DNA from: a candidate division WOR-3 bacterium
GTDB lineage: Bacteria > Hydrothermota > Tepidihabitantia > Tepidihabitantales > Tepidihabitantaceae
Direction: 5' to 3'
Length of the DNA: 64,000 nt
Assembly (NCBI GenBank): GCA_965649295.1
Contig: CBFGKH010000003.1
Coordinates: 64,001 to 128,000 of the forward strand
Shown piece by piece: positions 3,282-37,942 of the stretch. Position 1 is the stretch's first letter. The number at the start of each line of letters is the position of its first letter. Both the position numbers and the translations under genes were made by a program. The notes below the pieces were generated by a model. It worked only from the letters and a program-made list of their open reading frames with translations, was not told where the DNA came from and made no database searches.

Positions 3282-4748
3282 CTACTGGGCATCAATCCTT
3301 AGACGCTCGACCCTTTTATTACGACAACGGCAGGCCCAGTTGGCACGCCCCTCGGCGAGGTCATGACGTTCCACCCAGCTGTGGCAGACGTTACACCAAA
3401 CACAATTAGCCAGGTTCAGTACAGCTTCGCCGAATTGCCGTGCCTCATGCATTGACAGGCCCATGGCCCACTCATTGTAGTGTGCTCCCGCAATGTTGCG
3501 CAGGTGTATCCAACGCTGCACGGCTTCCGCAAAATCTTTGGCCGTCGTCCTCGACAGAACCTTGTACACACCCGGCCAGAGGTCGCCCAGAGTGTATCGA
3601 TCACCCCTTCTACGTATGACCGATGTAGGCAAAGCCTGGCTCATCTCGTGACAGACCAATTCCACCAGCAGATTAGCTCGCGCGCAGATATCCGATACGC
3701 GTCCGCAATCCAGCGCTTCAGTGAGGGCCTGGTCGACATTACGGTCACTGCCTGCCAGGATTGGCCCATTGTGGTAACTCCAATGCGAGATGGTTAAGTC
3801 CAGAAAGCGGTGCGCACGCTGACGCATCAGTGCGCGCAACTGCTCCTGCCAGAGCCGGTCGTGTGCGGTGAACACAATCTGCCAATCATGGAAGCGATCA
3901 ACAATATGCTCCGCCAAACGCTGACGGACAGGAGCATCGACACTCTGTAGTGTATCATCGAGTACGAGCAGCTTGGACTGCCCTCTCCGGGAAGCTTCCT
4001 CCACGAAGGCAAGATACACAAGCAGTGCCAGCAGGTCCAAATTGGCCTCGCTGAAGATCTGCTGCGGCGGCACGACTCTGCCTCCCACAAGATGAACGTT
4101 GAAGGCGAGGGTCGTCGACGTAGGTCGCTGATAGAGGAGCTCTATGGCCACGACATGCTCTGAAGCGGCAGAAAGTTCTCGAAAAGAATCAGTGACAGCA
4201 GCGCCGAGAGAGTTGAGCACACTCTGGACTGCACATTGCTTCTCCACTGGACTCTTCGTTCCCGGTCTCAGGAAGCTGTCGAAAGCAATCTGCCTCTCGT
4301 GGTCTGGCGTTTCCCAGAACCTCGTGATGTCGCTCCGGCGAAGCACGAACGGCGAGATACAGAAGCTCCTGTGTGGGCTGGTATCTCGCCGCCATTTGCC
4401 TCTGGTGTCGGGGGTGGCGCCACGTGTGAAGGACGTGCCATCCGCGAAATCGACAGTCGTCGCACTTTCAGTCGCCGCAAACAACGAGTAGAGGGGTAGC
4501 CAACGACCGCGGACGTTACCACGCAGAGCGTACTCCAGCGCATCGACAATTGTCGACTTGCCCGTACCATTGTCGCCGCAAATGAGGAGAGAACTTGGTG
4601 TGCCACATTTGTCCCTGAAGTCGACCACCAGTTTGTTCGGTACCCCCCTGAAGCCGTCGATCACGAGTCTGACGATTCTGGTATCGCCGACCGGTTGACA
4701 AGGGACGTTTCCTAGTGTCGGTTCAGTCAACTCGTTACCTCGCGGCAT
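3282..4748 (-). CDS. SMC/RecF-type ABC ATPase with C-terminal HEPN-like RNase motif and Zn ribbon (RloC/PrrC-like defence candidate)
   Basis: Walker A GDNGTGKS, signature FSEAN, Walker B LVLDD, H-loop TAHD; RNIAGAH motif; terminal CxxC...CxC. Confidence 0.8.
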   Translation of the reverse strand: MPRGNELTEPTLGNVPCQPVGDTRIVRLVIDGFRGVPNKLVVDFRDKCGTPSSLLICGDNGTGKSTIVDALEYALRGNVRGRWLPLYSLFAATESATTVDFADGTSFTRGATPDTRGKWRRDTSPHRSFCISPFVLRRSDITRFWETPDHERQIAFDSFLRPGTKSPVEKQCAVQSVLNSLGAAVTDSFRELSAASEHVVAIELLYQRPTSTTLAFNVHLVGGRVVPPQQIFSEANLDLLALLVYLAFVEEASRRGQSKLLVLDDTLQSVDAPVRQRLAEHIVDRFHDWQIVFTAHDRLWQEQLRALMRQRAHRFLDLTISHWSYHNGPILAGSDRNVDQALTEALDCGRVSDICARANLLVELVCHEMSQALPTSVIRRRGDRYTLGDLWPGVYKVLSRTTAKDFAEAVQRWIHLRNIAGAHYNEWAMGLSMHEARQFGEAVLNLANCVWCNVCHSWVERHDLAEGRANWACRCRNKRVERLRIDAQ

Positions 4749-4754
4749 AGGCCG

Positions 4755-4782
4755 ATGGTAGCAGAGCGAGGTTATCTGTCAA
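4755..4782 (-). promoter_or_regulatory. sigma70-type promoter, leaderless
   Basis: TTGACA-16-TACCAT-6 nt-ATG(4748). Confidence 0.65.
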
Positions 4783-4820
4783 GGTCGTCAACGTGGACGA
4801 ACGCGGAGGCGAGATTCCCT

Positions 4821-4883
4821 CGACTACCATCGGTATGACAATACCCATCACGTCATTCCGAGGAGGCCTGGCGGCGAGGAATC
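4821..4883. repeat. REP-like palindromic family (GTCATTCCG...GAGGAATC and GATT/ACCCTCGACT...TGAC arms)
   Basis: Same arms recur at 35458-35824 and 61102-61177. Confidence 0.7.
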
Positions 4884-5096
4884 GCCGCAGCCGGCGGTAG
4901 TGGCCGCTCGCTAGCGTTAGAACGAAAGAAGGAATGTGGCTACGAGGATGAACACGAGAAACGGAAGCTCCTAGGAACGAGAGAACCACAGGTTGCACAG
5001 CCGAGGTCGCCGAATTGCGTCCTCAATGGGTTATACGCACTAAGACCGAATCTCGTGCAGGAATTGTAATCCGGGGCACGCTTCCCCAGACCGGTT

Positions 5097-5116
5097 TGTG
5101 TACTTGCAAGTACACA
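5097..5116. promoter_or_regulatory. Perfect 20-bp palindrome TGTGTACTTGCAAGTACACA
   Basis: Direct reading; related palindrome at 35202-35229. Confidence 0.8.
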
Positions 5117-5188
5117 GAGGAGCACGGACGAACTATCGCGTAACCGCAGAGAATGCCGTGAGTTATAGTCTATCAGCCGCTTCCCGAG

Positions 5189-5482
5189 ACCCCACCCCGG
5201 GGACTGTCCCGGGAGTGGTTCGGTAGAGTTGTGGCGAGACTGCTTAGAGAGATGCTGAGGACACCATCTGCCAATCGGCTGGAGGTTGCGTCTGGGCAGG
5301 TCTTGGCATATGGGCTTCGAGGAGAAGTATCGGACGTGCTCCCCAAGCCAAGTGCAGGACTCTTCTCGGCGCTGCTACTGGGAACGTCTGCAACCCGGTT
5401 ATGGACTAGGCCTGCGGCAGCACTCCTGCTGCCCTCTCCCAAGACCCTGCTGCCAGAGCCACTCATGATGTCTTGGCCAGGC
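5189..5482 (+). repeat. 12-nt-phased degenerate array A with 33-bp anchor (5189-5221)
   Basis: 24 consecutive 12-mers from 5195, 21 starting with two pyrimidines; anchor identical to the reverse complement of 35102-35134. Confidence 0.8.
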
Positions 5483-20133: not shown

Positions 20134-21546
20134 ATGAAACCAAGTCTGAAGACCGCCACGGCATTAGCCGCCATCACTCTAGTGCTGGCTACTGGCTGTC
20201 AGCAGCCGCCGGCTGCTCCCGCCGTACCAGTCGGCCCGACCAGCGTTCGCAATGATAGCCTCTGCACCTACAGCGCTACTGCCGCTGACCCCAATGGTGA
20301 CAACGTTGCCTATCGCTTTGACTGGGGCACGGGCGACACATCAGATTGGACCGACTTCGTGGCCAGTGGTCAGCCCGGTTCCCAACAGTATGTCTTTCGT
20401 CACCGCGCCGGCACATTTCAGGTTCGTGCCCAGGCTCGCGATGCCAAGGACGCGCTTTCTCCCTGGTCAAACCCACTTACCGTCACGGTTACTAATCCCT
20501 ATCATCCCGTGCTCTGGCGCTATCAGACCGGCGCCTGGGTTCATTCGTCACCGGCCATCGCTCCTGACGGCACCATCTATGTCGGCTCATTCGACGGCTA
20601 CATGTACGCCTTCAATGCCGACAGCACGCTCAAGTGGCGCTTCCTGACCGGCAACTTCGTCCACTCGTCGCCGGCCATCGGCCCGGACGGAACGGTCTAC
20701 TTCGGCTCGTTCGACAACTACTTCTACGCCGTCAATGCCGACGGCACGCTCAAGTGGCGCTACCAGACCGCGGCGGGCTGTTGCGCTTCCCCGGCCATCG
20801 CCACGGATGGCACCGTCTATGTCGGGTCCCGCGACGGTTACCTGCACGCCATCAACCCGGACGGCTCGCCCAAATGGAACTACCAGACTGGCAACTGGGT
20901 AACATCCTCGCCAGCGATCGCTGCCGATGGCACGGTCTATGTCGGTTCCTACGACAACTACTTCTACGCACTGAATCCGGACGGCTCGCTCAAGTGGCGG
21001 TATCAGACCGGCGACCGCGTTCATTCTTCACCTGCAATTGGAGCCGATGGAACTGTCTTCGTCGGTTCGTTCGACGGCCTGCTCTATGCTTTCAATCCTG
21101 ACAGCACCCTCAAGTGGAGCTACGCGACCGGTGGCCCAATCATCTCCTCGCCGGCCATCGCGCCCGACGGCAGCATCTGCTTTGGCTCCTGCGACTACTA
21201 CGTCTATGCGCTTACTGCCGACGGCACACTCAAGTGGCGCTACCAAACAGACAGCGTCATCACCTCTTCGCCAGCCGTTGCTGCCGACGGCACTATCTAC
21301 ATTGGCTCCGGCGACAAGCGGTTTTATGCCTTCAACGCAGACGGCAGTCTGAAATGGAACTACCAAACCGGCGACTACATCGAATTCTCGTCGCCAGTTA
21401 TCGGACCGGATGGCACGGTCTATGTCGGCTCGAACGACACTTATCTGTACGCCTTTGCCGGTAGCTCACCGACCGCCAGTACGGCTTGGCCGACCTTCCG
21501 TCACGACCTCAGGCACACCGGCCGAGTGGGCGGCAGTGCCAAATAG
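20134..21546 (+). CDS. Lipoprotein with PKD-like domain and PQQ/BamB-like beta-propeller repeats
   Basis: Lipobox LATGC; about eight ~40-aa repeats SSPAI..DGT.Y.GS.D...YA.N.DG.LKW. Confidence 0.9.
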   Translation: MKPSLKTATALAAITLVLATGCQQPPAAPAVPVGPTSVRNDSLCTYSATAADPNGDNVAYRFDWGTGDTSDWTDFVASGQPGSQQYVFRHRAGTFQVRAQARDAKDALSPWSNPLTVTVTNPYHPVLWRYQTGAWVHSSPAIAPDGTIYVGSFDGYMYAFNADSTLKWRFLTGNFVHSSPAIGPDGTVYFGSFDNYFYAVNADGTLKWRYQTAAGCCASPAIATDGTVYVGSRDGYLHAINPDGSPKWNYQTGNWVTSSPAIAADGTVYVGSYDNYFYALNPDGSLKWRYQTGDRVHSSPAIGADGTVFVGSFDGLLYAFNPDSTLKWSYATGGPIISSPAIAPDGSICFGSCDYYVYALTADGTLKWRYQTDSVITSSPAVAADGTIYIGSGDKRFYAFNADGSLKWNYQTGDYIEFSSPVIGPDGTVYVGSNDTYLYAFAGSSPTASTAWPTFRHDLRHTGRVGGSAK

Positions 21547-21564
21547 CGACAAACGACGATTGTC

Positions 21565-22974
21565 ATGAATCGCTGCACTATCCTGTTGGTCCTGACTGCC
21601 GTACTCACGATTGGCTGCGACCGGCCCAATAGACCACCCAACATCCCTAACGCCCCAAGCGGGCCAACCAGTATCCGCAACGATAGCCTTTGCACGTTCA
21701 GCGCCATGACGACCGACCCAGAGGGTGACAGCATCAGCTATCGATTCGACTGGGGCACCGGCGATACGTCGGCGTGGACAGACTGGGTTACAAGTGGTCA
21801 AGCCGATTCGCAGCAGCACGTATTCCGTCATCGTGCTGGCACGTTTGCGGTTCGTGCCCAAGCCCGCGACAAGAAGCTCGCCCTGTCTATGTGGTCTGAA
21901 CCACTGACGGTGTCTGTCACCAATCCCTACTTCCCCAGAATCTGGCAGTTCGCAACCGAAGGCCCAGTCCAGTCTTCCCCGGCTATCGCCCCGGATGGCA
22001 CCATCTACTTTGGTTCCGCTGACAGACACCTCTATGCCCTCAATCCTGACAGCACCATCAAGTGGCGATTCGGTACTGGCGGAGTGATAAGCGCGTCGCC
22101 AGCTATTGGCAGCGACGGCACCATCTATTTCGGGTCACACGACAGTTTCTTCTATGCCCTCAACCCCGACGGCACGCTACGCTGGCGCTACCAGACCAGC
22201 GCCCCTGTCCAGTCCTCAGCCGCAATTGGTCCAGACCGTACCATCTACTTTGGTGCTTGTCTCGACACCCTCTATTACCTGCTTGCCCTCGGCCCCGACA
22301 GCATTCTCAAGTGGCGGTTCCGGACCGGCGGCTGGGTTCACTCCTCGCCGGCAGTTGGCGCTGATGGCACGATCTACTTCGGCTCAACCGACAGCCACAT
22401 CTACGCCCTCAACCCCGACAGCACCCGCAAATGGCGCTACCAGACCGATGGCATCGTTACTGCTTCACCAGCAATAGGAGCTGACGGCACAATCTACATC
22501 GGCTCGGGTGATGGCGGACTCTATGCGCTAAACCCAGACGGAACTCTTCGCTGGCGGCTCCCTACCTACGGCAGCATCACCTCCTCAGCTGCTCTCGGTA
22601 CCGATGGCACCATCTACTTTGGCTCCTACGACTTCCATCTCTACGCTGTCAGACCTGACGGCACTCTGCGCTGGCGCTATCAAACCGGCAACGGCATCTA
22701 CTCCTCACCAGCCGTGGCAGCCGACGGCACAATCCTCTTTGGCTCCTGGGACGGCTGGTTCTATGCTCTTTCCCCGGAAGGCAATCTGAAATGGCGGTAC
22801 GGAACTAGCGAACGGATATTCTCATCACCGGCCATCGCTGCTAATGGCACAATCTACGTTGGCGCCAACGACCGGAGCATCTACGCGCTGTGTGGTACGA
22901 CTCCGCTTGCCCACTCGGCCTGGCCCAAGTTCCGCCACGACAATCAGAACACCGGCAGGGTCACTGCTAAGTAG
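21565..22974 (+). CDS. Paralogous PQQ-like beta-propeller lipoprotein
   Basis: Lipobox LTIGC; same architecture as the upstream gene. Confidence 0.9.
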   Translation: MNRCTILLVLTAVLTIGCDRPNRPPNIPNAPSGPTSIRNDSLCTFSAMTTDPEGDSISYRFDWGTGDTSAWTDWVTSGQADSQQHVFRHRAGTFAVRAQARDKKLALSMWSEPLTVSVTNPYFPRIWQFATEGPVQSSPAIAPDGTIYFGSADRHLYALNPDSTIKWRFGTGGVISASPAIGSDGTIYFGSHDSFFYALNPDGTLRWRYQTSAPVQSSAAIGPDRTIYFGACLDTLYYLLALGPDSILKWRFRTGGWVHSSPAVGADGTIYFGSTDSHIYALNPDSTRKWRYQTDGIVTASPAIGADGTIYIGSGDGGLYALNPDGTLRWRLPTYGSITSSAALGTDGTIYFGSYDFHLYAVRPDGTLRWRYQTGNGIYSSPAVAADGTILFGSWDGWFYALSPEGNLKWRYGTSERIFSSPAIAANGTIYVGANDRSIYALCGTTPLAHSAWPKFRHDNQNTGRVTAK

Positions 22975-32248: not shown

Positions 32249-33646
32249 TCACCAAACGCCGGTCCGCAAATACTCATCAATCGAGTTAGCGGCAATCCGG
32301 CCTGCACCCATCGCCAGAATCACCGTGGCCGCACCGGTAACAATGTCGCCGCCGGCAAATACGCCGCGCTTGCTCGTGCGGCCGGTCTTCGGGTCAGCGA
32401 CAACATTGCCCCACTTGGCCACTTCCAGCCCCGGGGTTGTCTGCGGTATCAGCGGATTGGGGCTGTTACCGATTGCGACGACCACCGTGTCAACCGGAAT
32501 CCGGAACTCGCTCCCTTTCACCGGCACTGGCCGCCGCCGGCCGCTCGCGTCCGGTTCGCCCAGCTCCATCCGCAGACACTCCACCTCACGCACCCAGCCC
32601 TCGCTATCAGCGATGTATCGGACCGGATTGGTCAGCAGGTGGAACTCGATACCTTCCTCTTCGGCGTGGTGAATCTCTGCCTGCCGGGCCGGCATCTCGT
32701 CGCGGGACCGACGATAGATTATCATTGACTTCTCCGCGCCCAGTCGCAGCGCGGTCCGGGCAGCATCCATTGCCACATTGCCCCCGCCAATCGTCGCCAC
32801 CCGCTTGCCGCGCACAATCGGCGTGTCATACTTGGGAAACAGGTAAGCCTTCATCAGATTCGACCGGGTCAAATACTCATTGGCCGAATAGACCCCAAGG
32901 TAGTTCTCGCCCGGAATCCCCATAAAGGTCGGCAACCCGGCGCCAGTGCCAACAAAGACCGCATCAAACTCAGCCAGCAGCTCGTCCACGGTGCGCAGCT
33001 TGCCCACGACGTAGTTCAGATGAAGCGTCACACCCATCGAGCGAATGAAGTTCACCTCGCGCTCGACAATCGCCTTGGGCAACCGAAACTCCGGAATGCC
33101 ATAGACCAGCACACCACCCGGCTTGTGCAGTGCCTCGAAAACCGTGACCGAATGCCCGAGCTTTGCACAGTCGCTCGCTACTGTCAGCCCGGCCGGCCCA
33201 GCGCCCACCACCGCTACCTTCTTGCCGGTCGGCGGCTGCATTTGGCACATCACACATTCGCTCTGCTCAGCCTCCCAGTCAGCGATAAACCGTTCCAGAT
33301 TGCCAATCGCCACCGGCTCCATCTTCTTCGCCAGCACACACTCGCCCTCGCACTGAGTCTCCTGCGGACAGACCCGACCACAGATTGCCGGCAACGTGTT
33401 CTTCGCCTTCATTATTTTCATCGCTTCCCAGAAGTTGCCCAGCGCAATCTGGCCGATGAAGCCCGGGATATCAATGTTTACCGGACATCCCTGCACGCAG
33501 CCCGGCTTCTTGCACGCAAGACAGCGCTTCGCCTCCTCAACCGCCTCTTCCGGCGAATAGCCGTAGGGCACCTCGTCAAAATTGCGGGCCCGAACCTTCG
33601 GGTCCTGCTCGCGCATCGGCGTCTTCTTCGGGCTTGGCTTAGGCAT
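32249..33646 (-). CDS. nfnB: GltD-like NADPH-dependent oxidoreductase, large subunit of bifurcating transhydrogenase (NfnB/SudA)
   Basis: CLACKKPGC, CGRVCPQE.QCE, GAGPAG, GGGNVAMD; paired with nfnA. Confidence 0.9.
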   Translation of the reverse strand: MPKPSPKKTPMREQDPKVRARNFDEVPYGYSPEEAVEEAKRCLACKKPGCVQGCPVNIDIPGFIGQIALGNFWEAMKIMKAKNTLPAICGRVCPQETQCEGECVLAKKMEPVAIGNLERFIADWEAEQSECVMCQMQPPTGKKVAVVGAGPAGLTVASDCAKLGHSVTVFEALHKPGGVLVYGIPEFRLPKAIVEREVNFIRSMGVTLHLNYVVGKLRTVDELLAEFDAVFVGTGAGLPTFMGIPGENYLGVYSANEYLTRSNLMKAYLFPKYDTPIVRGKRVATIGGGNVAMDAARTALRLGAEKSMIIYRRSRDEMPARQAEIHHAEEEGIEFHLLTNPVRYIADSEGWVREVECLRMELGEPDASGRRRPVPVKGSEFRIPVDTVVVAIGNSPNPLIPQTTPGLEVAKWGNVVADPKTGRTSKRGVFAGGDIVTGAATVILAMGAGRIAANSIDEYLRTGVW

Positions 33647-34508
33647 TTCGGCACTCCTTGTGCGCACCGCAGCAACCTGCAGCTCGCTGAGCCTCGAACT
33701 GCTCCAGCGACAGCTTCTCCTCGGGCAAGTAAGTGCGGAGCCGGGCCATCAGCAGGTCAAAATCAACCTTGTGCCCGTCAAACTCTGGGCCGTCAACGCA
33801 GGCGAACTTCGTCTCACCACCGACATCAACCCGGCAGACACCACACATCCCGGTCGCGTCGAGCATGATTGGGTTGAGACTCACTGTTGTCGGAATACCG
33901 TATGGCCCGGTCAGCTTCGAGACCATCTTCATCATGATTACCGGGCCAACCGCAAAGAGATGACCAATCTTCTCTCCGCGGTCAATCACGGCCTTGAGCA
34001 TATCGGTCACAAACCCCTTCTGACCATACGAGCCATCGTCGGTACAAACAATCAGCTCGGTAGAAGCCGACCGCATCTCTTCTTCCATCAACACCAGCTC
34101 TTTTGAGCGAAAACCGATGATGGAAATGACCTTGTTACCGGCCGCCTTCAGGGCCTTGGCAACCGGATAGACCTCGGGTGTGCCCACGCCGCCGCCAACA
34201 CAGACCACAGTCCCGTAGTTCTCGATATGGGTTGGCTGACCGAGCGGACCAATCAGGTCTAGGATGGTGTCACCAACCTCGAGCGTGCCCAGCAGCTTTG
34301 TTGACTTCCCCACCTCTTGGAACACGATAACCAGAATCCCCTTATCCGGATCGGTGTCAGCCACGGTCAACGGAATCCGCTCACCCTCCTCGTTCACCCG
34401 TAGAACAACAAACTGCCCGGGTCGGGCCTTGCGGGCGATTTCCGGCGCGTCGAGGTCAAAACGTTTGATAACCGGCGACAGCACCTGCTTGGCGAGAATC
34501 CTGGTCGT
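33639..34508 (-). CDS. nfnA: PyrK-like FAD/NAD/2Fe-2S subunit (NfnA/SudB); probable ACG start
   Basis: PGQFV, GERIPLT, GGGVG, DATGMCGVCR, CVDGPEF; first canonical start is GTG 34484. Confidence 0.9.
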   Translation of the reverse strand, partial: TTRILAKQVLSPVIKRFDLDAPEIARKARPGQFVVLRVNEEGERIPLTVADTDPDKGILVIVFQEVGKSTKLLGTLEVGDTILDLIGPLGQPTHIENYGTVVCVGGGVGTPEVYPVAKALKAAGNKVISIIGFRSKELVLMEEEMRSASTELIVCTDDGSYGQKGFVTDMLKAVIDRGEKIGHLFAVGPVIMMKMVSKLTGPYGIPTTVSLNPIMLDATGMCGVCRVDVGGETKFACVDGPEFDGHKVDFDLLMARLRTYLPEEKLSLEQFEAQRAAGCCGAHKECRNA

Positions 34509-34816
34509 AAGGCCTCCTTATGGATGATGTTGTCCAGATTGAGCAGCCGGACTACCTGCAAGGACCCGGCAGCGAACTCGGGCCCCGAGATTGGTCTGAA
34601 CCGGCTCCAACTGCCGTTCGCAACAGCCATAAGCATATAGACAAATCAGAATTAGTCAAGGGACTGAAAAACGATACCAAGCTCCCTGCCTGCCAAGGGG
34701 TTACAGCCGTTTCCCGCAAACGACCGAGCTACTACCCTAACACGCTAACCGATTGACAACAGAGAGAATAGCAAGGCCCGCCCCTAACCCAAACCACCCT
34801 GGCCGGCTTCACATTA

Positions 34817-35134
34817 TTGGCTCTCCAGCTCACCAGCCAGAACCCGAGCAAGGCCTATTCGAGGGAGTGGCAGGAACAGACCGCCAGACCACTTGGGCAA
34901 GCCTGTGCCCAAGGCCAAGGCAGGCCCATCTCCAGACCGCAGGCCAAACAGCCCGAGCAAGAGCCGCCCATACACAATAGCAAACAGCCTTCCCAGCTCT
35001 GGTCAGAAGAGCTGCCCGGACATTCTGCCCAACCCCGCCACCAGCTTATCCATCAGTAGTCCGACCCGCACCTTACCAGACAGCCTCACCAAGGGTTCAG
35101 GGAACCACTCCCGGGACAGTCCCCGGGGTGGGGT
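34817..35134 (-). repeat. 12-nt-phased degenerate array B with 33-bp anchor (35102-35134)
   Basis: 26 consecutive 12-mers on the minus strand from 35128; all start with a pyrimidine, 24 with two. Confidence 0.8.
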
Positions 35135-35201
35135 ATACAGAAACGCACTACACACCTAACTGGCTGTCATGCAGAGACTTGCACCAAGAGCCGGGCGCAG
35201 G

Positions 35202-35229
35202 TCTCTGTGAACTTCAAAGTACACAGAGA
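35202..35229. promoter_or_regulatory. Imperfect palindrome TCTCTGTGAACTT-CA-AAGTACACAGAGA
   Basis: 12 of 13 arm pairs; homologous to 5097-5116. Confidence 0.75.
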
Positions 35230-35249
35230 GCACGGGCGTATCCTTGGCT

Positions 35250-35362
35250 AACTCGTATCCACCATTAGGCCCTTCTCCATTCAGGCTGAACAAATTCCGA
35301 CCGGCTGGCACCGGCACTCCAACGGAACTCGTATCCACCATTAGGCCCTTCTCCATTCAGGC
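35250..35362. repeat. Two identical 37-bp direct repeats separated by 39 bp
   Basis: AACTCGTATCCACCATTAGGCCCTTCTCCATTCAGGC at 35250-35286 and 35326-35362. Confidence 0.9.
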
Positions 35363-35457
35363 CCTGGCTCGGATTCTAACCAACCAAACCCTACAGACGA
35401 CATCCGTAAGGCAAGAAGCCACCATGACTGACAATTAGATGCAAACACCGTTTTCCC

Positions 35458-35824
35458 GTCATTCCGAACGAGCAGAGCGAGTGAGGAATCGCCGGACAAC
35501 GAACAACGAAGACCCTCGACTGCGCTCGGGGTGACGTGCGGGTTCTTCGCTCGGTTCAGGGTGACGTGATAGGGTCTTCTCTCCGCTCGGGATGGTATGA
35601 AATGCAAGGTAACACGAGAAGGCTTTGCCACGTTCGGTTGACTGGTGACCCGCCGGACACCCAGATTCGTCTCCTCCCTGTCATTCCGAGCGCAGGTCGC
35701 AAGGCCGGAGTCGAGGAATCGTCGGCAATAAGGGACAAAGACCCCTCGACTATGCTCGGGGTGACTTGATGGGTCTTCGCTCCGCTCGGCATGACATGAA
35801 GGCGGCTTTGTCACGCTCAGGGTG
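35458..35824. repeat. Cluster of REP-like palindromic elements
   Basis: Two GTCATTCCG...GAGGAATC...ACCCTCGACT..GCTCGGGGTGAC units plus extra right-arm copies. Confidence 0.8.
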
Positions 35825-35874
35825 GTATAGCCGTAGCATACCTTGCCCGGCCATCATCGTATCGTTCCGACTCC

Positions 35875-35902
35875 TTGACCGGCCCACCGACCCATCTAGA
35901 AT
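35875..35902 (+). promoter_or_regulatory. uvrB promoter, leaderless
   Basis: TTGACC-16-TAGAAT-6 nt-GTG. Confidence 0.65.
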
Positions 35903-35908
35903 CGAACT

Positions 35909-37942
<2,034 letters not shown>

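What the first reader, a model, noticed from the sequence alone, without database searches (positions are those of the whole stretch)
34817..35134. Array B: second, inverted copy with the same anchor but entirely different units
Seen: on the minus strand from 35128 there are 26 phased 12-mers (…ttccctgaaccc ttggtgaggctg tctggtaaggtg cgggtcggacta ctgatggataag ctggtggcgggg ttgggcagaatg…). All 26 start with a pyrimidine, 24 with two, and 23 end in G/C. Identity with array A stops abruptly after the 33-bp anchor, while unit length and total length (about 300 bp) are kept. The plus frame again ends NHSRDSPRGGV but has no ATG (only ATT/TTG), and the 11 shared codons show no synonymous change. Inference: conservation acts at DNA/RNA level, and each locus acquired or diversified its units independently.
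Basis: partly seen in the sequence, partly recalled or inferred. Interest (0 to 1): 0.85.

Follow-up and report, generated by a model that had tools for sequence, protein, structure and literature searches.

The report
Phased 12-base chromosomal docking track
This stretch is one of about seventy evenly spaced, non-coding tracks in an uncultured bacterium's chromosome that keep a strict 12-base rhythm while their letters drift, most likely as landing strips for DNA-wrapping proteins related to the coats of archaeal rod-shaped viruses.

Summary
On the plus strand each unit is C-N8-RRR, and the 'anchor' is simply the last two units.

B is not a one-off twin of array A. My genome-wide scan finds 72 such arrays in this 2.28-Mb genome, mostly 23-26 units long.
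- **Not coding.** Stops per frame match what the unit pattern alone predicts.
- **Not a folded RNA**.
- **Not CRISPR-like.** Units are neither shared between arrays nor matched elsewhere beyond chance.
- **Pattern under selection.** A related population keeps B at the same locus with its phase intact. There the array has changed about twice as fast as its flanks, yet stays purine at unit positions 11-12.

The arrays are spaced far more evenly than chance (mean 29 kb, CV 0.39; 0 of 3000 shuffles as regular).

The whole bacterial order, and no other sampled part of the phylum, carries a multi-copy family with the fold of Adnaviria capsid proteins. Dimers of those proteins cover 12 bp each (PMC5517147, PMC7189273). 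Arrays often lie directly upstream of such genes.

Best reading: a DNA docking track for these proteins. Binding itself is untested.

This scan had already reached the same reading on other parts of this genome. The even spacing appears in none of the notes I retrieved.

The parts
34817..35104 (+). Body of array B: 24 degenerate 12-bp units in strict phase. Plus-strand unit over 352 units: C 57% at position 1, A 44% at position 10, purine 89% and 90% at positions 11 and 12.
35105..35128 (+).
35103..35135 (+). The 33-nt anchor. It is an imperfect G+C palindrome/hairpin containing CCCGGG and CCCCGGGG. At least 16 copies occur in the genome at up to 6 mismatches.
35156..35160 (+). CTAAC motif of the conserved module; TAAC is nearly invariant in the 16 class-1 copies.
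35203..35228 (+). Terminal palindrome CTCTGTGAAC-TTCAAA-GTACACAGAG (type P1). It closes the module about 100 nt after the array.
5183..5482 (-). Array A: 25 units, inverted relative to B, with the same anchor and module class.
5097..5119 (-). Terminal palindrome of array A's module (TGTGTACTTGCAAGTACACA).
34632..34659 (-). Sigma-70-like site for the divergent upstream gene (33639-34484, FAD/NAD/Fe-S oxidoreductase subunit). It lies outside the array.
35875..35902 (+). Sigma-70-like site just before uvrB (35909-37942). It lies outside the array and module.

Best explanation
Array B is a cis-acting, non-coding DNA track. It has 26 contiguous 12-bp docking registers, then a conserved G+C palindromic anchor and a ~100-bp module that ends in a palindrome. 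It is one of about 72 such tracks, spaced roughly every 29 kb along the chromosome and concentrated where gene orientation switches.

The most likely binder is the lineage's own multi-copy family of small proteins with the fold of the Adnaviria (SIRV2-type) major capsid protein. Dimers of those viral proteins each wrap 12 bp of A-form DNA. One dimer would sit on each unit and polymerise from the anchor/module end, possibly started by an XRE/C-protein-like HTH protein on the palindrome. The result would be a nucleoprotein segment of about 25 dimers on about 300 bp, acting as an architectural or boundary element.

Shown here:
- the phase of the array, the unit pattern and the absence of coding;
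- selection on the pattern;
- the number and spacing of the arrays;
- the fold and taxonomic range of the protein family, and gene-array adjacency.

From the literature: 12 bp per dimer.

Inferred: that these proteins bind the arrays, the direction of nucleation, A-form DNA and the cellular role.

My odds: a non-coding phased element under pattern-level selection, 0.95; acts as double-stranded DNA bound by a protein oligomer, 0.65; the binder is the capsid-fold family, 0.45.
For: 1. **Period and phase.** All 16 anchor copies, and 72 arrays genome-wide, keep one 12-nt register over 13-30 units, 52 of 72 with 23-26. The PWM score background is -57 +/- 15.6, against scores above 20 for the arrays.
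2. **Selection on the pattern only.**
   - In-phase identity between arrays is 0.323, against 0.321 expected from the unit pattern.
   - In a relative's 4930-nt contig, B has 45 changes in 329 nt, against 24/337, 25/309 and 8/172 in the flanks.
   - Its two 1-nt indels cancel within 3 nt, so the phase is kept.
   - Of the 24 substitutions the tool listed in the array, all 4 at unit positions 11-12 end as purines. These include both of B's only non-purine exceptions (unit positions worked out).
3. **Not RNA-structured and not coding**.
4. **The protein family.**
   - Six paralogues in this genome.
   - Profile against PDB sequences: the best three hits are SIRV2 3j9x (E 0.002), SSRV1 6wq0 and AFV1 5w7g.
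   - The AlphaFold model has pLDDT 86.
   - The Foldseek top 8 are all Adnaviria capsid proteins; 3j9x has TM 0.77 over 128 columns.
5. **12 bp per dimer.** Passages read in PMC5517147 (AFV1, 'as with SIRV') and PMC7189273 (PFV2).
6. **Taxonomic range.** The family is in 65 of 66 genomes of the order, and in 57 of 57 order genomes against 0 of 193 others sampled from the phylum.
7. **Period-12-specific arrays (power >= 6).** 8 per 400 kb in G004 (same family) and 12 per 400 kb in G026 (another family of the order). None in 400 kb from each of two genomes of other orders that lack the protein.
8. **Adjacency.**
   - The strongest period-12 peak lies directly upstream of the capsid-like gene in 11 of 13 loci with at least 400 nt of upstream DNA, from 6 other MAGs.
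   - The same holds in 8 of 29 order-wide loci.
   - In this genome it holds for 2 of 6 paralogues plus one weak relative, C8:92922, which is also one of the four HTH_31 genes below.
   - In G004 the order is array, HTH gene, capsid-like gene.
   - All 4 strong members of an HTH_31 family lie 48-192 nt behind an array, co-oriented.
9. **Chromosome-level layout.**
   - Spacing CV is 0.39-0.46, against 0.90-0.92 for random placement, with 0 of 3000 simulations as regular.
   - 39 of 66 arrays sit at strand-switch intergenic regions, against 31% of all gene pairs (p 2e-6).
   - All four combinations of neighbour orientation occur: 26/17/17/11.
   - Both genes flanking B have their own promoter-like sites outside the array.
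Against: - No binding, expression or structural data exist for any array.
- The four capsid-like paralogues that best match the family have no array within 900 nt upstream. There are 6-7 genes for 72 arrays.
- The unit is polar, not dyad-symmetric: the best correlation of the PWM with its reverse complement is 0.48. The SIRV2 homodimer has strict two-fold symmetry (PMC5517147 passage). A heterodimer would be needed.
- From recall, with no call behind it: viral capsid proteins are not known to prefer any sequence.
- The arrays are strand-asymmetric (A 25%, T 16%), which would also fit a single-stranded (RNA) function.
- Even spacing is shown only in this genome. There are array-free contig ends of 64-98 kb. 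The G004 sample has 9 arrays, then a 180-kb stretch without one by the Fourier detector.
- G027 (31% G+C) gave no period-specific signal.
- The reading frame of co-oriented upstream genes is biased relative to the unit phase (14/7/2 of 23). The docking model does not explain this.
- Related genomes are not independent, and only 5 genomes were sampled for arrays.
Confidence: 0.45

Rival explanations
1. The arrays are DNA docking tracks, but for another oligomerising protein. Candidates are the HTH_31 family with a long C-terminal domain whose genes sit behind arrays, or an unidentified factor. The 12-bp match to capsid-protein dimers would then be coincidence.
For: All 4 strong HTH_31-family genes lie directly behind an array. 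Their HTH is nearest to the controller proteins of restriction systems, which bind palindromic operators, and the modules end in palindromes. Most capsid-like genes in this genome are not next to arrays.
Against: An HTH would read a conserved box, not 25 degenerate units. There are four genes and three or more palindrome types for 72 arrays. Adjacency of arrays to capsid-like genes recurs in other MAGs (11 of 13 loci), and in G004 the HTH and capsid-like genes are one unit behind one array. The two families may therefore work together rather than compete.
Confidence: 0.2
2. The element works as RNA. A ~400-nt transcript (array plus module) carries purine triplets every 12 nt that titrate or guide an RNA-binding protein, as CsrB-type sponges do, or it serves as a long leader.
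For: Strong strand asymmetry and a polar unit. The orientation of the array relative to the module is fixed. The module folds better than shuffles (z -2.07, 4 of 200). Arrays lie upstream of, and co-oriented with, HTH and capsid-like genes.
Against: The array has no excess structure on either strand (z -0.13 and -0.22). No Rfam family matches. The neighbours show every orientation, including 15-17 convergent sites. Even spacing and a preference for strand-switch sites are chromosome-level properties. One-sided changes in the palindrome arms go uncompensated in several copies.
Confidence: 0.15
3. There is no dedicated binder. The phased purine triplets give the DNA an intrinsic shape or supercoil response (a writhe at 12 bp per repeat), and this itself marks domain boundaries.
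For: The units are degenerate and carry little information (about 2.3 bits per unit, summed), as rotational positioning signals do. The arrays are evenly spaced.
Against: This does not explain the conserved anchor and module, the constant 23-26 units, or the restriction to the one order that has the capsid-fold family.
Confidence: 0.1
4. It is a mobile or acquisitive element: MITE-like copies, or a CRISPR-like store of 12-nt units taken up at each locus.
For: The end module is conserved while the bodies are unrelated. About 72 dispersed copies occur, some near contig ends.
Against: There are no repeats between 'spacers'. Units are not shared and do not match elsewhere beyond chance. The same locus is occupied collinearly in a relative. 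Spacing is over-regular, which transposition would not give.
Confidence: 0.03
5. It encodes, or recently encoded, a tetrapeptide-repeat protein ending in ...NHSRDSPRGGV.
For: The period is a multiple of 3. B has an 88-codon TTG frame (34893-35159). Upstream co-oriented genes tend to share one frame with the units (14 of 23).
Against: Stops per frame equal the expectation from the unit pattern: frame F1 is stop-free in 11 of 72 arrays against 10.8 simulated, and 44 of 72 arrays have no open frame at all. All three stop codons occur in frame in single copies. Forty-three arrays have no co-oriented upstream gene.
Confidence: 0.02

Closest known systems
Nucleocapsids of archaeal filamentous viruses (realm Adnaviria: SIRV2, SSRV1, AFV1, PFV2)
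   Same: Small alpha-helical proteins of the same fold. One dimer covers 12 bp of DNA (PMC5517147, PMC7189273), which equals the array period.
   Different: Here the genes are chromosomal, multi-copy and universal in one bacterial order. The DNA carries a phased sequence pattern in ~300-bp tracks instead of a whole genome coated without known sequence preference (that last point is recalled). No virion genes were looked for.
Type II plasmid partition centromere parC with ParR (R1, pSK41)
   Same: A row of phased direct units that a dimeric protein coats cooperatively into a superhelical complex, next to the protein's own gene (recalled; also named as closest known in other notes of this scan).
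   Different: The parC iterons are near-identical, sit at one locus per replicon and have a period of about one B-DNA turn (recalled). Here the units share only 3-4 positions, the period is 12, and there are about 72 evenly spaced loci.
Nucleosome-positioning sequences of eukaryotes and archaeal histone tracks
   Same: A degenerate periodic signal rather than a conserved box. It probably sets the register of a wrapped protein-DNA particle of fixed size.
   Different: Period 12 instead of about 10. The pattern is polar, with a conserved end module. The protein fold is unrelated. This is an analogy only; nothing here was tested.
CRISPR arrays
   Same: A conserved end ('leader'-like module) followed by many equal-length, mutually unrelated units.
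   Different: There are no repeats between units and no matches of units elsewhere. About 72 loci have nearly constant length, and a relative shows ordinary substitution rather than unit turnover. cas genes were not searched.
REP/BIME-type intergenic repeat elements
   Same: Dispersed intergenic elements with palindromic modules, found in all neighbour orientations.
   Different: The ~300-bp body is not conserved in sequence, only in phase, and the spacing is over-regular.

Membership tests
Adnaviria-type capsid protein / DNA wrapping system | Protein with the SIRV2 major-capsid-protein fold | tested here: met
   In the profile search of PDB sequences the three best of 177,635 are 3j9x, 6wq0 and 5w7g. 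The Foldseek top 8 are all Adnaviria capsid proteins, TM 0.77 to 3j9x. Pfam PF12193 scores 23.4 bits, just under the 25.2 cut-off.
Adnaviria-type capsid protein / DNA wrapping system | 12 bp of DNA per protein dimer | tested here: inconclusive
   The arrays have an exact 12-bp period, and the literature gives 12 bp per dimer. That these proteins sit on these units is not shown.
Adnaviria-type capsid protein / DNA wrapping system | DNA held in A-form inside a helical filament | not testable with these tools
   Needs CD, cryo-EM or footprinting. Dinucleotide make-up (CC/GG 1.03 in arrays against 0.88 genome-wide) decides nothing.
Adnaviria-type capsid protein / DNA wrapping system | Part of a virus genome | tested here: not met
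   B lies between uvrB and an oxidoreductase gene. Arrays sit beside Rho, EF-P, MetRS, ProRS and similar genes. The protein family is in 65 of 66 genomes of the order.
CRISPR array | Identical direct repeats separating unique spacers | tested here: not met
   Tandem Repeats Finder and the repeat finder report no repeat inside 34817-35104.
Protein-coding repeat gene | A reading frame kept open across copies | tested here: not met
   The best frame is stop-free in 11 of 72 arrays against 10.8 expected, and 44 of 72 arrays have no stop-free frame.
Structured non-coding RNA (any Rfam family) | Match to a covariance model, or folding beyond shuffles | tested here: not met
   No Rfam match at gathering score in the window. 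At E <= 10 the only match is a microRNA model at 30.5 of 100 bits, outside the array. Array z-scores are -0.13 and -0.22.
Iteron-type centromere (parC/ParR-like) | Near-identical iterons at one locus beside the partition genes | tested here: not met
   Units share only the positional pattern (identity 0.32), and there are 72 loci. Partition genes were not searched.

The most novel reading that the evidence does not exclude
One bacterial order has domesticated, or gave rise to, the capsid protein of archaeal filamentous viruses as a chromatin protein. About 25 dimers assemble on each of about 70 sequence-encoded 300-bp tracks, converting them to virus-like A-form nucleoprotein segments. Placed every ~29 kb at the borders of transcription blocks, these segments divide the chromosome into domains. 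This would be a positioned, sequence-programmed 'bead' system with no counterpart in known bacterial nucleoid biology, and a cellular context for a fold thought to be exclusive to viruses.
Probability: 0.3. Interest if true: 0.95.

Novelty: categorically new. Interest (0 to 1): 0.86.

Why it matters
If the reading holds, three things follow.
- A protein fold so far described only in archaeal viruses would have a cellular, order-wide role in bacteria. That bears on where the Adnaviria capsid came from.
- Bacteria would have sequence-programmed, fixed-size nucleoprotein particles at regular chromosomal intervals. This would be a new layer of nucleoid organisation that Hi-C and ChIP can test directly.
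- The arrays show that selection can hold a register and three or four positions per 12 bp over ~300 bp while every other letter drifts. Alignment-based and repeat-finding tools cannot see this kind of element.

Even if the binder turns out to be different, about 72 evenly spaced phased tracks taking up 0.9% of a 2.3-Mb genome (20,988 bases) need an explanation.

My two literature searches found no paper describing bacterial relatives of this capsid protein or 12-bp phased arrays. I judged this from titles and abstract openings, and read one preprint's passages, which were unrelated.

Tried and rejected
- **RNA expression.** No RNA holder was listed for the stretch, so transcription stays untested.
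- **Pairing of two adjacent capsid-like paralogues.** Complex prediction gave no verdict: score 0.00, controls not run.
- **Fold of the HTH_31 family's C-terminal domain.**
  - The structure job was not accepted at the time and I did not send it again.
  - A profile-profile comparison with the capsid-like family gave probability 9%.
  - The PDB profile search hit only the HTH part.
  - The protein atlas gave nothing above 0.77.
- **Whole-genome search of relatives with a degenerate phased IUPAC pattern.** Distribution therefore rests on 245-400 kb samples from 5 genomes, scanned by Fourier power.
- **Exact anchor in relatives.** Found in 0 of 40 at up to 3 mismatches, so the anchor sequence is genus-specific although the arrays are not.
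- **Array upstream of uvrB in relatives.** Only 1 clear case (L051, G017) and 1 weak case (L028) among 29 loci from 27 genomes. Chance is enough to explain that, so I do not count it as conserved synteny.
- **Replication-strand bias.** Array orientation against flanking GC skew is 31 to 41, so none.
- **The search for related loci with the alignment.** It failed for lack of a conserved stretch and was repeated with a single protein.
- **G027 (31% G+C).** The Fourier detector is not period-specific there, so the result is inconclusive.
- **A-philicity from dinucleotide steps.** No clear signal.
- **Rfam.** The mir-1896 match at 35619-35709 (30.5 of 100 bits) is chance.

Full report
**1. What is at the coordinates**

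Window 34817-35128 (+) lies in a 1.4-kb gene-free gap. On one side is a divergent oxidoreductase-subunit gene (33639-34484, minus strand). On the other is uvrB (35909-37942, plus strand).

All 26 start with a pyrimidine, 24 start with two, and 23 end in G/C. The other eleven phases reach at most 23, 14 and 23. Tandem Repeats Finder reports nothing here, so the units share a pattern rather than a sequence.

On the plus strand the unit reads C-N8-RRR. Over 352 units from 16 copies:
- position 1 is C in 57% and A in only 5%;
- position 10 is A in 44%;
- positions 11 and 12 are purines in 89% and 90%.

**2. It is a large family, not a pair**

The anchor occurs 16 times in the 2.28-Mb, 19-contig genome at up to 6 mismatches. 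The aligned copies share:
- the G+C palindromic anchor;
- a TAAC about 25 nt further on;
- a terminal palindrome of the type TGTGTACTT-N-AAGTACACA about 100 nt after the array.

Everything upstream of the anchor is unalignable, yet all 16 copies show Fourier power of 2.0-5.1 at period 12, against 0.1-1.8 at periods 9-15.

I built a position matrix from these copies and scored 20 consecutive units across the genome. This gives 72 non-overlapping arrays scoring above 20, against a background of -57 +/- 15.6. They hold 13-30 units, and 52 of the 72 hold 23-26. Many that did not contribute to the matrix score higher than those that did.

A detector that uses no matrix (period-12 power above 3.5) finds 40 regions, 39 of which are these arrays. 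Only A (5183-5482, minus strand) and B lie in the window.

The modules behind the arrays fall into at least three terminal-motif types: P1 palindrome 16, TGCACC...GGTGCA palindrome 20, a TAACTTTATACTT-type motif 7, and 30 unassigned by my strict patterns.

**3. What it is not**

*Not coding.*
- All six frames carry stops in many of the copies whose output I saw (part of the output was cut).
- Over the 72 arrays the most open frame is stop-free in 11, against 10.8 in arrays simulated from the unit pattern.
- 44 of the 72 have no open frame at all.

*Not a known or structured RNA.*
- No Rfam family reaches gathering score in the window.
- The only sub-threshold match lies outside the array.
- The array folds no better than shuffles on either strand (z -0.13 and -0.22).
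- Only the module does (z -2.07).

*Not CRISPR-like or acquisitive.*
- Among 1461 body units, 2 are shared between arrays, against 0.94 +/- 0.91 expected.
- A and B are 33.3% identical in phase, against 32.1% expected.
- B's units match the rest of the genome 0.57 times each, against 0.64 for the same DNA read in other phases.

**4. The pattern is under selection**

One public hot-spring metagenome run holds a 4930-nt contig that covers this locus from the upstream gene into uvrB. Over 34837-35165 it is collinear: 329 letters laid on 329 positions.
- It has 45 substitutions there, against 24/337, 25/309 and 8/172 in the three flanking pieces.
- A 1-nt deletion at 35052 is cancelled by a 1-nt insertion after 35054, so the register survives.
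- The tool listed 24 of the substitutions in the array (more rows were not shown). I assigned them to unit positions.
- The four at positions 11-12 are G>A, A>G, T>G and C>A. The last two turn B's only two non-purine exceptions at position 11 into purines.

So the letters drift about twice as fast as in the neighbouring DNA, while the phase and the purine positions are held. This is one pair of relatives and a partial list, so the evidence is suggestive rather than statistical.

**5. Where the arrays lie**
- All are intergenic, and their neighbours show every orientation: 26 divergent, 17 convergent, 17 plus 11 co-directional, out of 71.
- With a cleaner gene set, 39 of 66 sit where gene orientation switches, against 31% of all adjacent gene pairs (binomial p 2e-6).
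- Both genes flanking B have sigma-70-like sites of their own outside the array.
- Orientation does not follow GC skew (31 against 41).

The spacing is far more regular than chance.
- For the 64 arrays scoring at least 30, the 49 within-contig distances average 28.9 kb (SD 11.1, minimum 11.3, maximum 50.4), giving a CV of 0.39.
- Random placement gives 0.92 +/- 0.11, and 0 of 3000 simulations are as regular.
- The result holds for all 72 arrays (CV 0.44) and for a cut-off of 45 (CV 0.46).
- A and B are 29.6 kb apart.

Caveats: some contig ends run 64-98 kb without an array. In a 400-kb sample of relative G004, the Fourier detector finds 9 arrays and then none for 180 kb.

**6. The lead from earlier notes, and my own test of it**

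Before looking, my reading was a family of non-coding RNA genes (60%). Earlier notes of this scan on other parts of the same genome claimed relatives of the SIRV2 capsid protein linked to 12-bp arrays. I tested this independently.

*The protein family exists and has the claimed fold.*
- Pfam PF12193 gives four sub-threshold hits in the genome.
- An HMM built from them finds six paralogues of 123-137 residues.
- Their profile, searched against all PDB sequences, puts SIRV2 3j9x (E 0.002), SSRV1 6wq0 and AFV1 5w7g first.
- An AlphaFold model (pLDDT 86) has as its eight best Foldseek matches only Adnaviria capsid proteins, with TM 0.77 to 3j9x over the full length.

*The footprint matches the period.* Passages I read state 12 bp of A-form DNA per capsid-protein dimer for AFV1 ('as with SIRV') and for PFV2 (PMC5517147, PMC7189273).

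*The family is order-wide and order-specific.*
- It is in 65 of 66 genomes of the order; the one miss is 68% complete.
- Matches per genome range from 1 to 57.
- It is in 57 of 57 order genomes, against 0 of 193 others in a 251-genome sample of the phylum.

**7. Link between arrays and these genes**

*In this genome.*
- Two of the six paralogues have an array just upstream.
- So does one weak relative (C8:92922), which is also one of the four HTH_31-family genes described below.
- The four best-matching paralogues have none within 900 nt.

*In six other MAGs.* The strongest period-12 peak of the whole locus lies directly upstream of the capsid-like gene in 11 of the 13 loci with at least 400 nt of upstream DNA. 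One lies downstream and one locus has no peak.

*Across the order.* Among 29 order-wide loci, 8 have such an array ending 184-385 nt before the gene. All 8 genes belong to one subfamily, judging by their N-termini.

*A second gene family.*
- An XRE/HTH_31 protein with a long C-terminal domain is tied even more tightly to the arrays.
- All four strong members lie 48-192 nt behind an array, co-oriented.
- Its HTH is nearest to restriction-system controller proteins.
- In G004, one array is followed by a gene of this HTH family and then directly by a capsid-like gene.

*Co-occurrence of arrays with the protein family.*
- Period-12-specific arrays (power at least 6, with periods 9-24 giving 0-1) number 8 per 400 kb in G004 and 12 per 400 kb in G026, which belongs to a different family of the order.
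- There are none in 400 kb from each of two genomes of other orders that lack the protein.
- G027, at 31% G+C, is uninformative.
- In G004 the units are near-identical tandem copies of a 12-mer with the same C...AAG frame, so this genome's arrays look like a drifted version.

These genomes are kin and few, so this is consistent co-occurrence, not proof.

**8. Most likely mechanism**

The array is a register of about 25 docking sites of 12 bp each. Capsid-fold dimers fill them one per unit, starting from the conserved end. That end comprises the anchor, rich in CCCGGG/CCCCGGGG, and the module palindrome, which an HTH protein may recognise. The result would be a fixed-size nucleoprotein segment.

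If the geometry were that of SIRV2, with 14.7 dimers per turn (PMC5517147 passage), 25 dimers would make about 1.7 superhelical turns (my arithmetic).

Even spacing and the preference for strand-switch sites point to an architectural or boundary role. Arrays in front of capsid-like and HTH genes could also give feedback control.

What is shown:
- the anatomy of the array and module;
- selection on the pattern;
- the spacing of the arrays;
- the fold and taxonomic range of the protein family;
- adjacency of genes and arrays.

What is inferred: binding, polarity, A-form DNA and function.

What does not fit:
- the polarity of the unit (the best self-reverse-complement correlation is 0.48), which would need a heterodimer or a polar filament;
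- the A-over-T skew;
- the bias of upstream genes' reading frames relative to the unit phase (14/7/2 of 23).

The two nearest rivals are the same track read by another protein (0.2) and an RNA-level function (0.15). I could find no RNA run to test the RNA rival.

**9. Novelty**

Two full-text searches, judged from titles and abstract openings, turned up no paper on bacterial relatives of the Adnaviria capsid protein or on 12-bp phased arrays. One preprint whose passages I read was unrelated.

Earlier agents of this scan reached the capsid-track reading on other windows of this genome. This report adds:
- the test on arrays A and B;
- the orthologous-copy comparison;
- the negative tests for coding, RNA and unit sharing;
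- the order-versus-phylum contrast;
- the tie to the HTH family;
- the even spacing and the strand-switch preference.

A word search of the scan's notes found no mention of the spacing.

Noticed in passing
whole genome (arrays listed); window arrays at 5183-5482 and 34817-35128: The arrays are spaced much more evenly than chance: mean 28.9 kb, CV 0.39 against 0.92, none closer than 11.3 kb among the 64 confident ones. They also prefer intergenic regions where gene orientation switches (39 of 66 against 31%).
   Followed up: yes
G000 contigs C9:8972-10144, C1:137513-138736, C4:31345-32091, C8:92922-93641 (loci L134, L112, L120, L133): A family of XRE/HTH_31 proteins with a long conserved C-terminal domain of unknown fold. 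All four members sit 48-192 nt behind an array. The HTH is nearest to restriction-system controller proteins.
   Followed up: partly
23 arrays with a co-oriented upstream gene: The upstream gene's reading frame is biased relative to the 12-nt register (14/7/2; chi-square about 9.5 by my arithmetic). The start frame of downstream genes is not biased (10/8/7). Unexplained.
   Followed up: partly
window 35250-35286 and 35326-35362: Two perfect 37-nt direct repeats 76 nt apart, just behind B's module. In a relative's contig 35166-35456 is replaced by 1989 other letters, and in another run 35287-35394 is replaced by 31 letters. This spacer is therefore highly variable between strains.
   Followed up: no
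window 35513-35598 and 35743-35828; also 4780-4900 behind array A: 86-nt repeats (73% alike) built from short GCTCGG...GTGACGTG-type palindromic pieces. Many unrelated metagenome contigs pile up on 35678-35724, so this looks like a separate REP-like dispersed element. A chance microRNA model match lies here.
   Followed up: no
window 20134-22974: Two adjacent genes of about 470 codons made of some 15 copies of a 120-nt (40-residue) repeat, which looks like a beta-propeller repeat protein pair. No family search was run.
   Followed up: no
L164:8833-9240 (G004:C1, about 188.8-189.2 kb): In this relative the arrays are near-perfect tandem copies of one 12-mer (GCYTGGCAAGCA type), not degenerate as here. 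Part of this array reads N (withheld).
   Followed up: partly
relatives' capsid-like genes listed: Several otherwise full-length capsid-like genes in relatives carry one in-frame TAG, TGA or TAA (for example G014:C13, G022:C217, G045:C38). These could be pseudogenes or read-through; copy number reaches 57 in one genus.
   Followed up: no
window 3282-4748 (-) and 35909-37942 (+): The genes downstream of A and B in array orientation are an SMC/RecN-like AAA ATPase and UvrB, both DNA-repair-type. Genes behind the other arrays are mixed housekeeping genes (Rho, EF-P, GreA-domain, MetRS, ProRS), so this is probably coincidence.
   Followed up: partly
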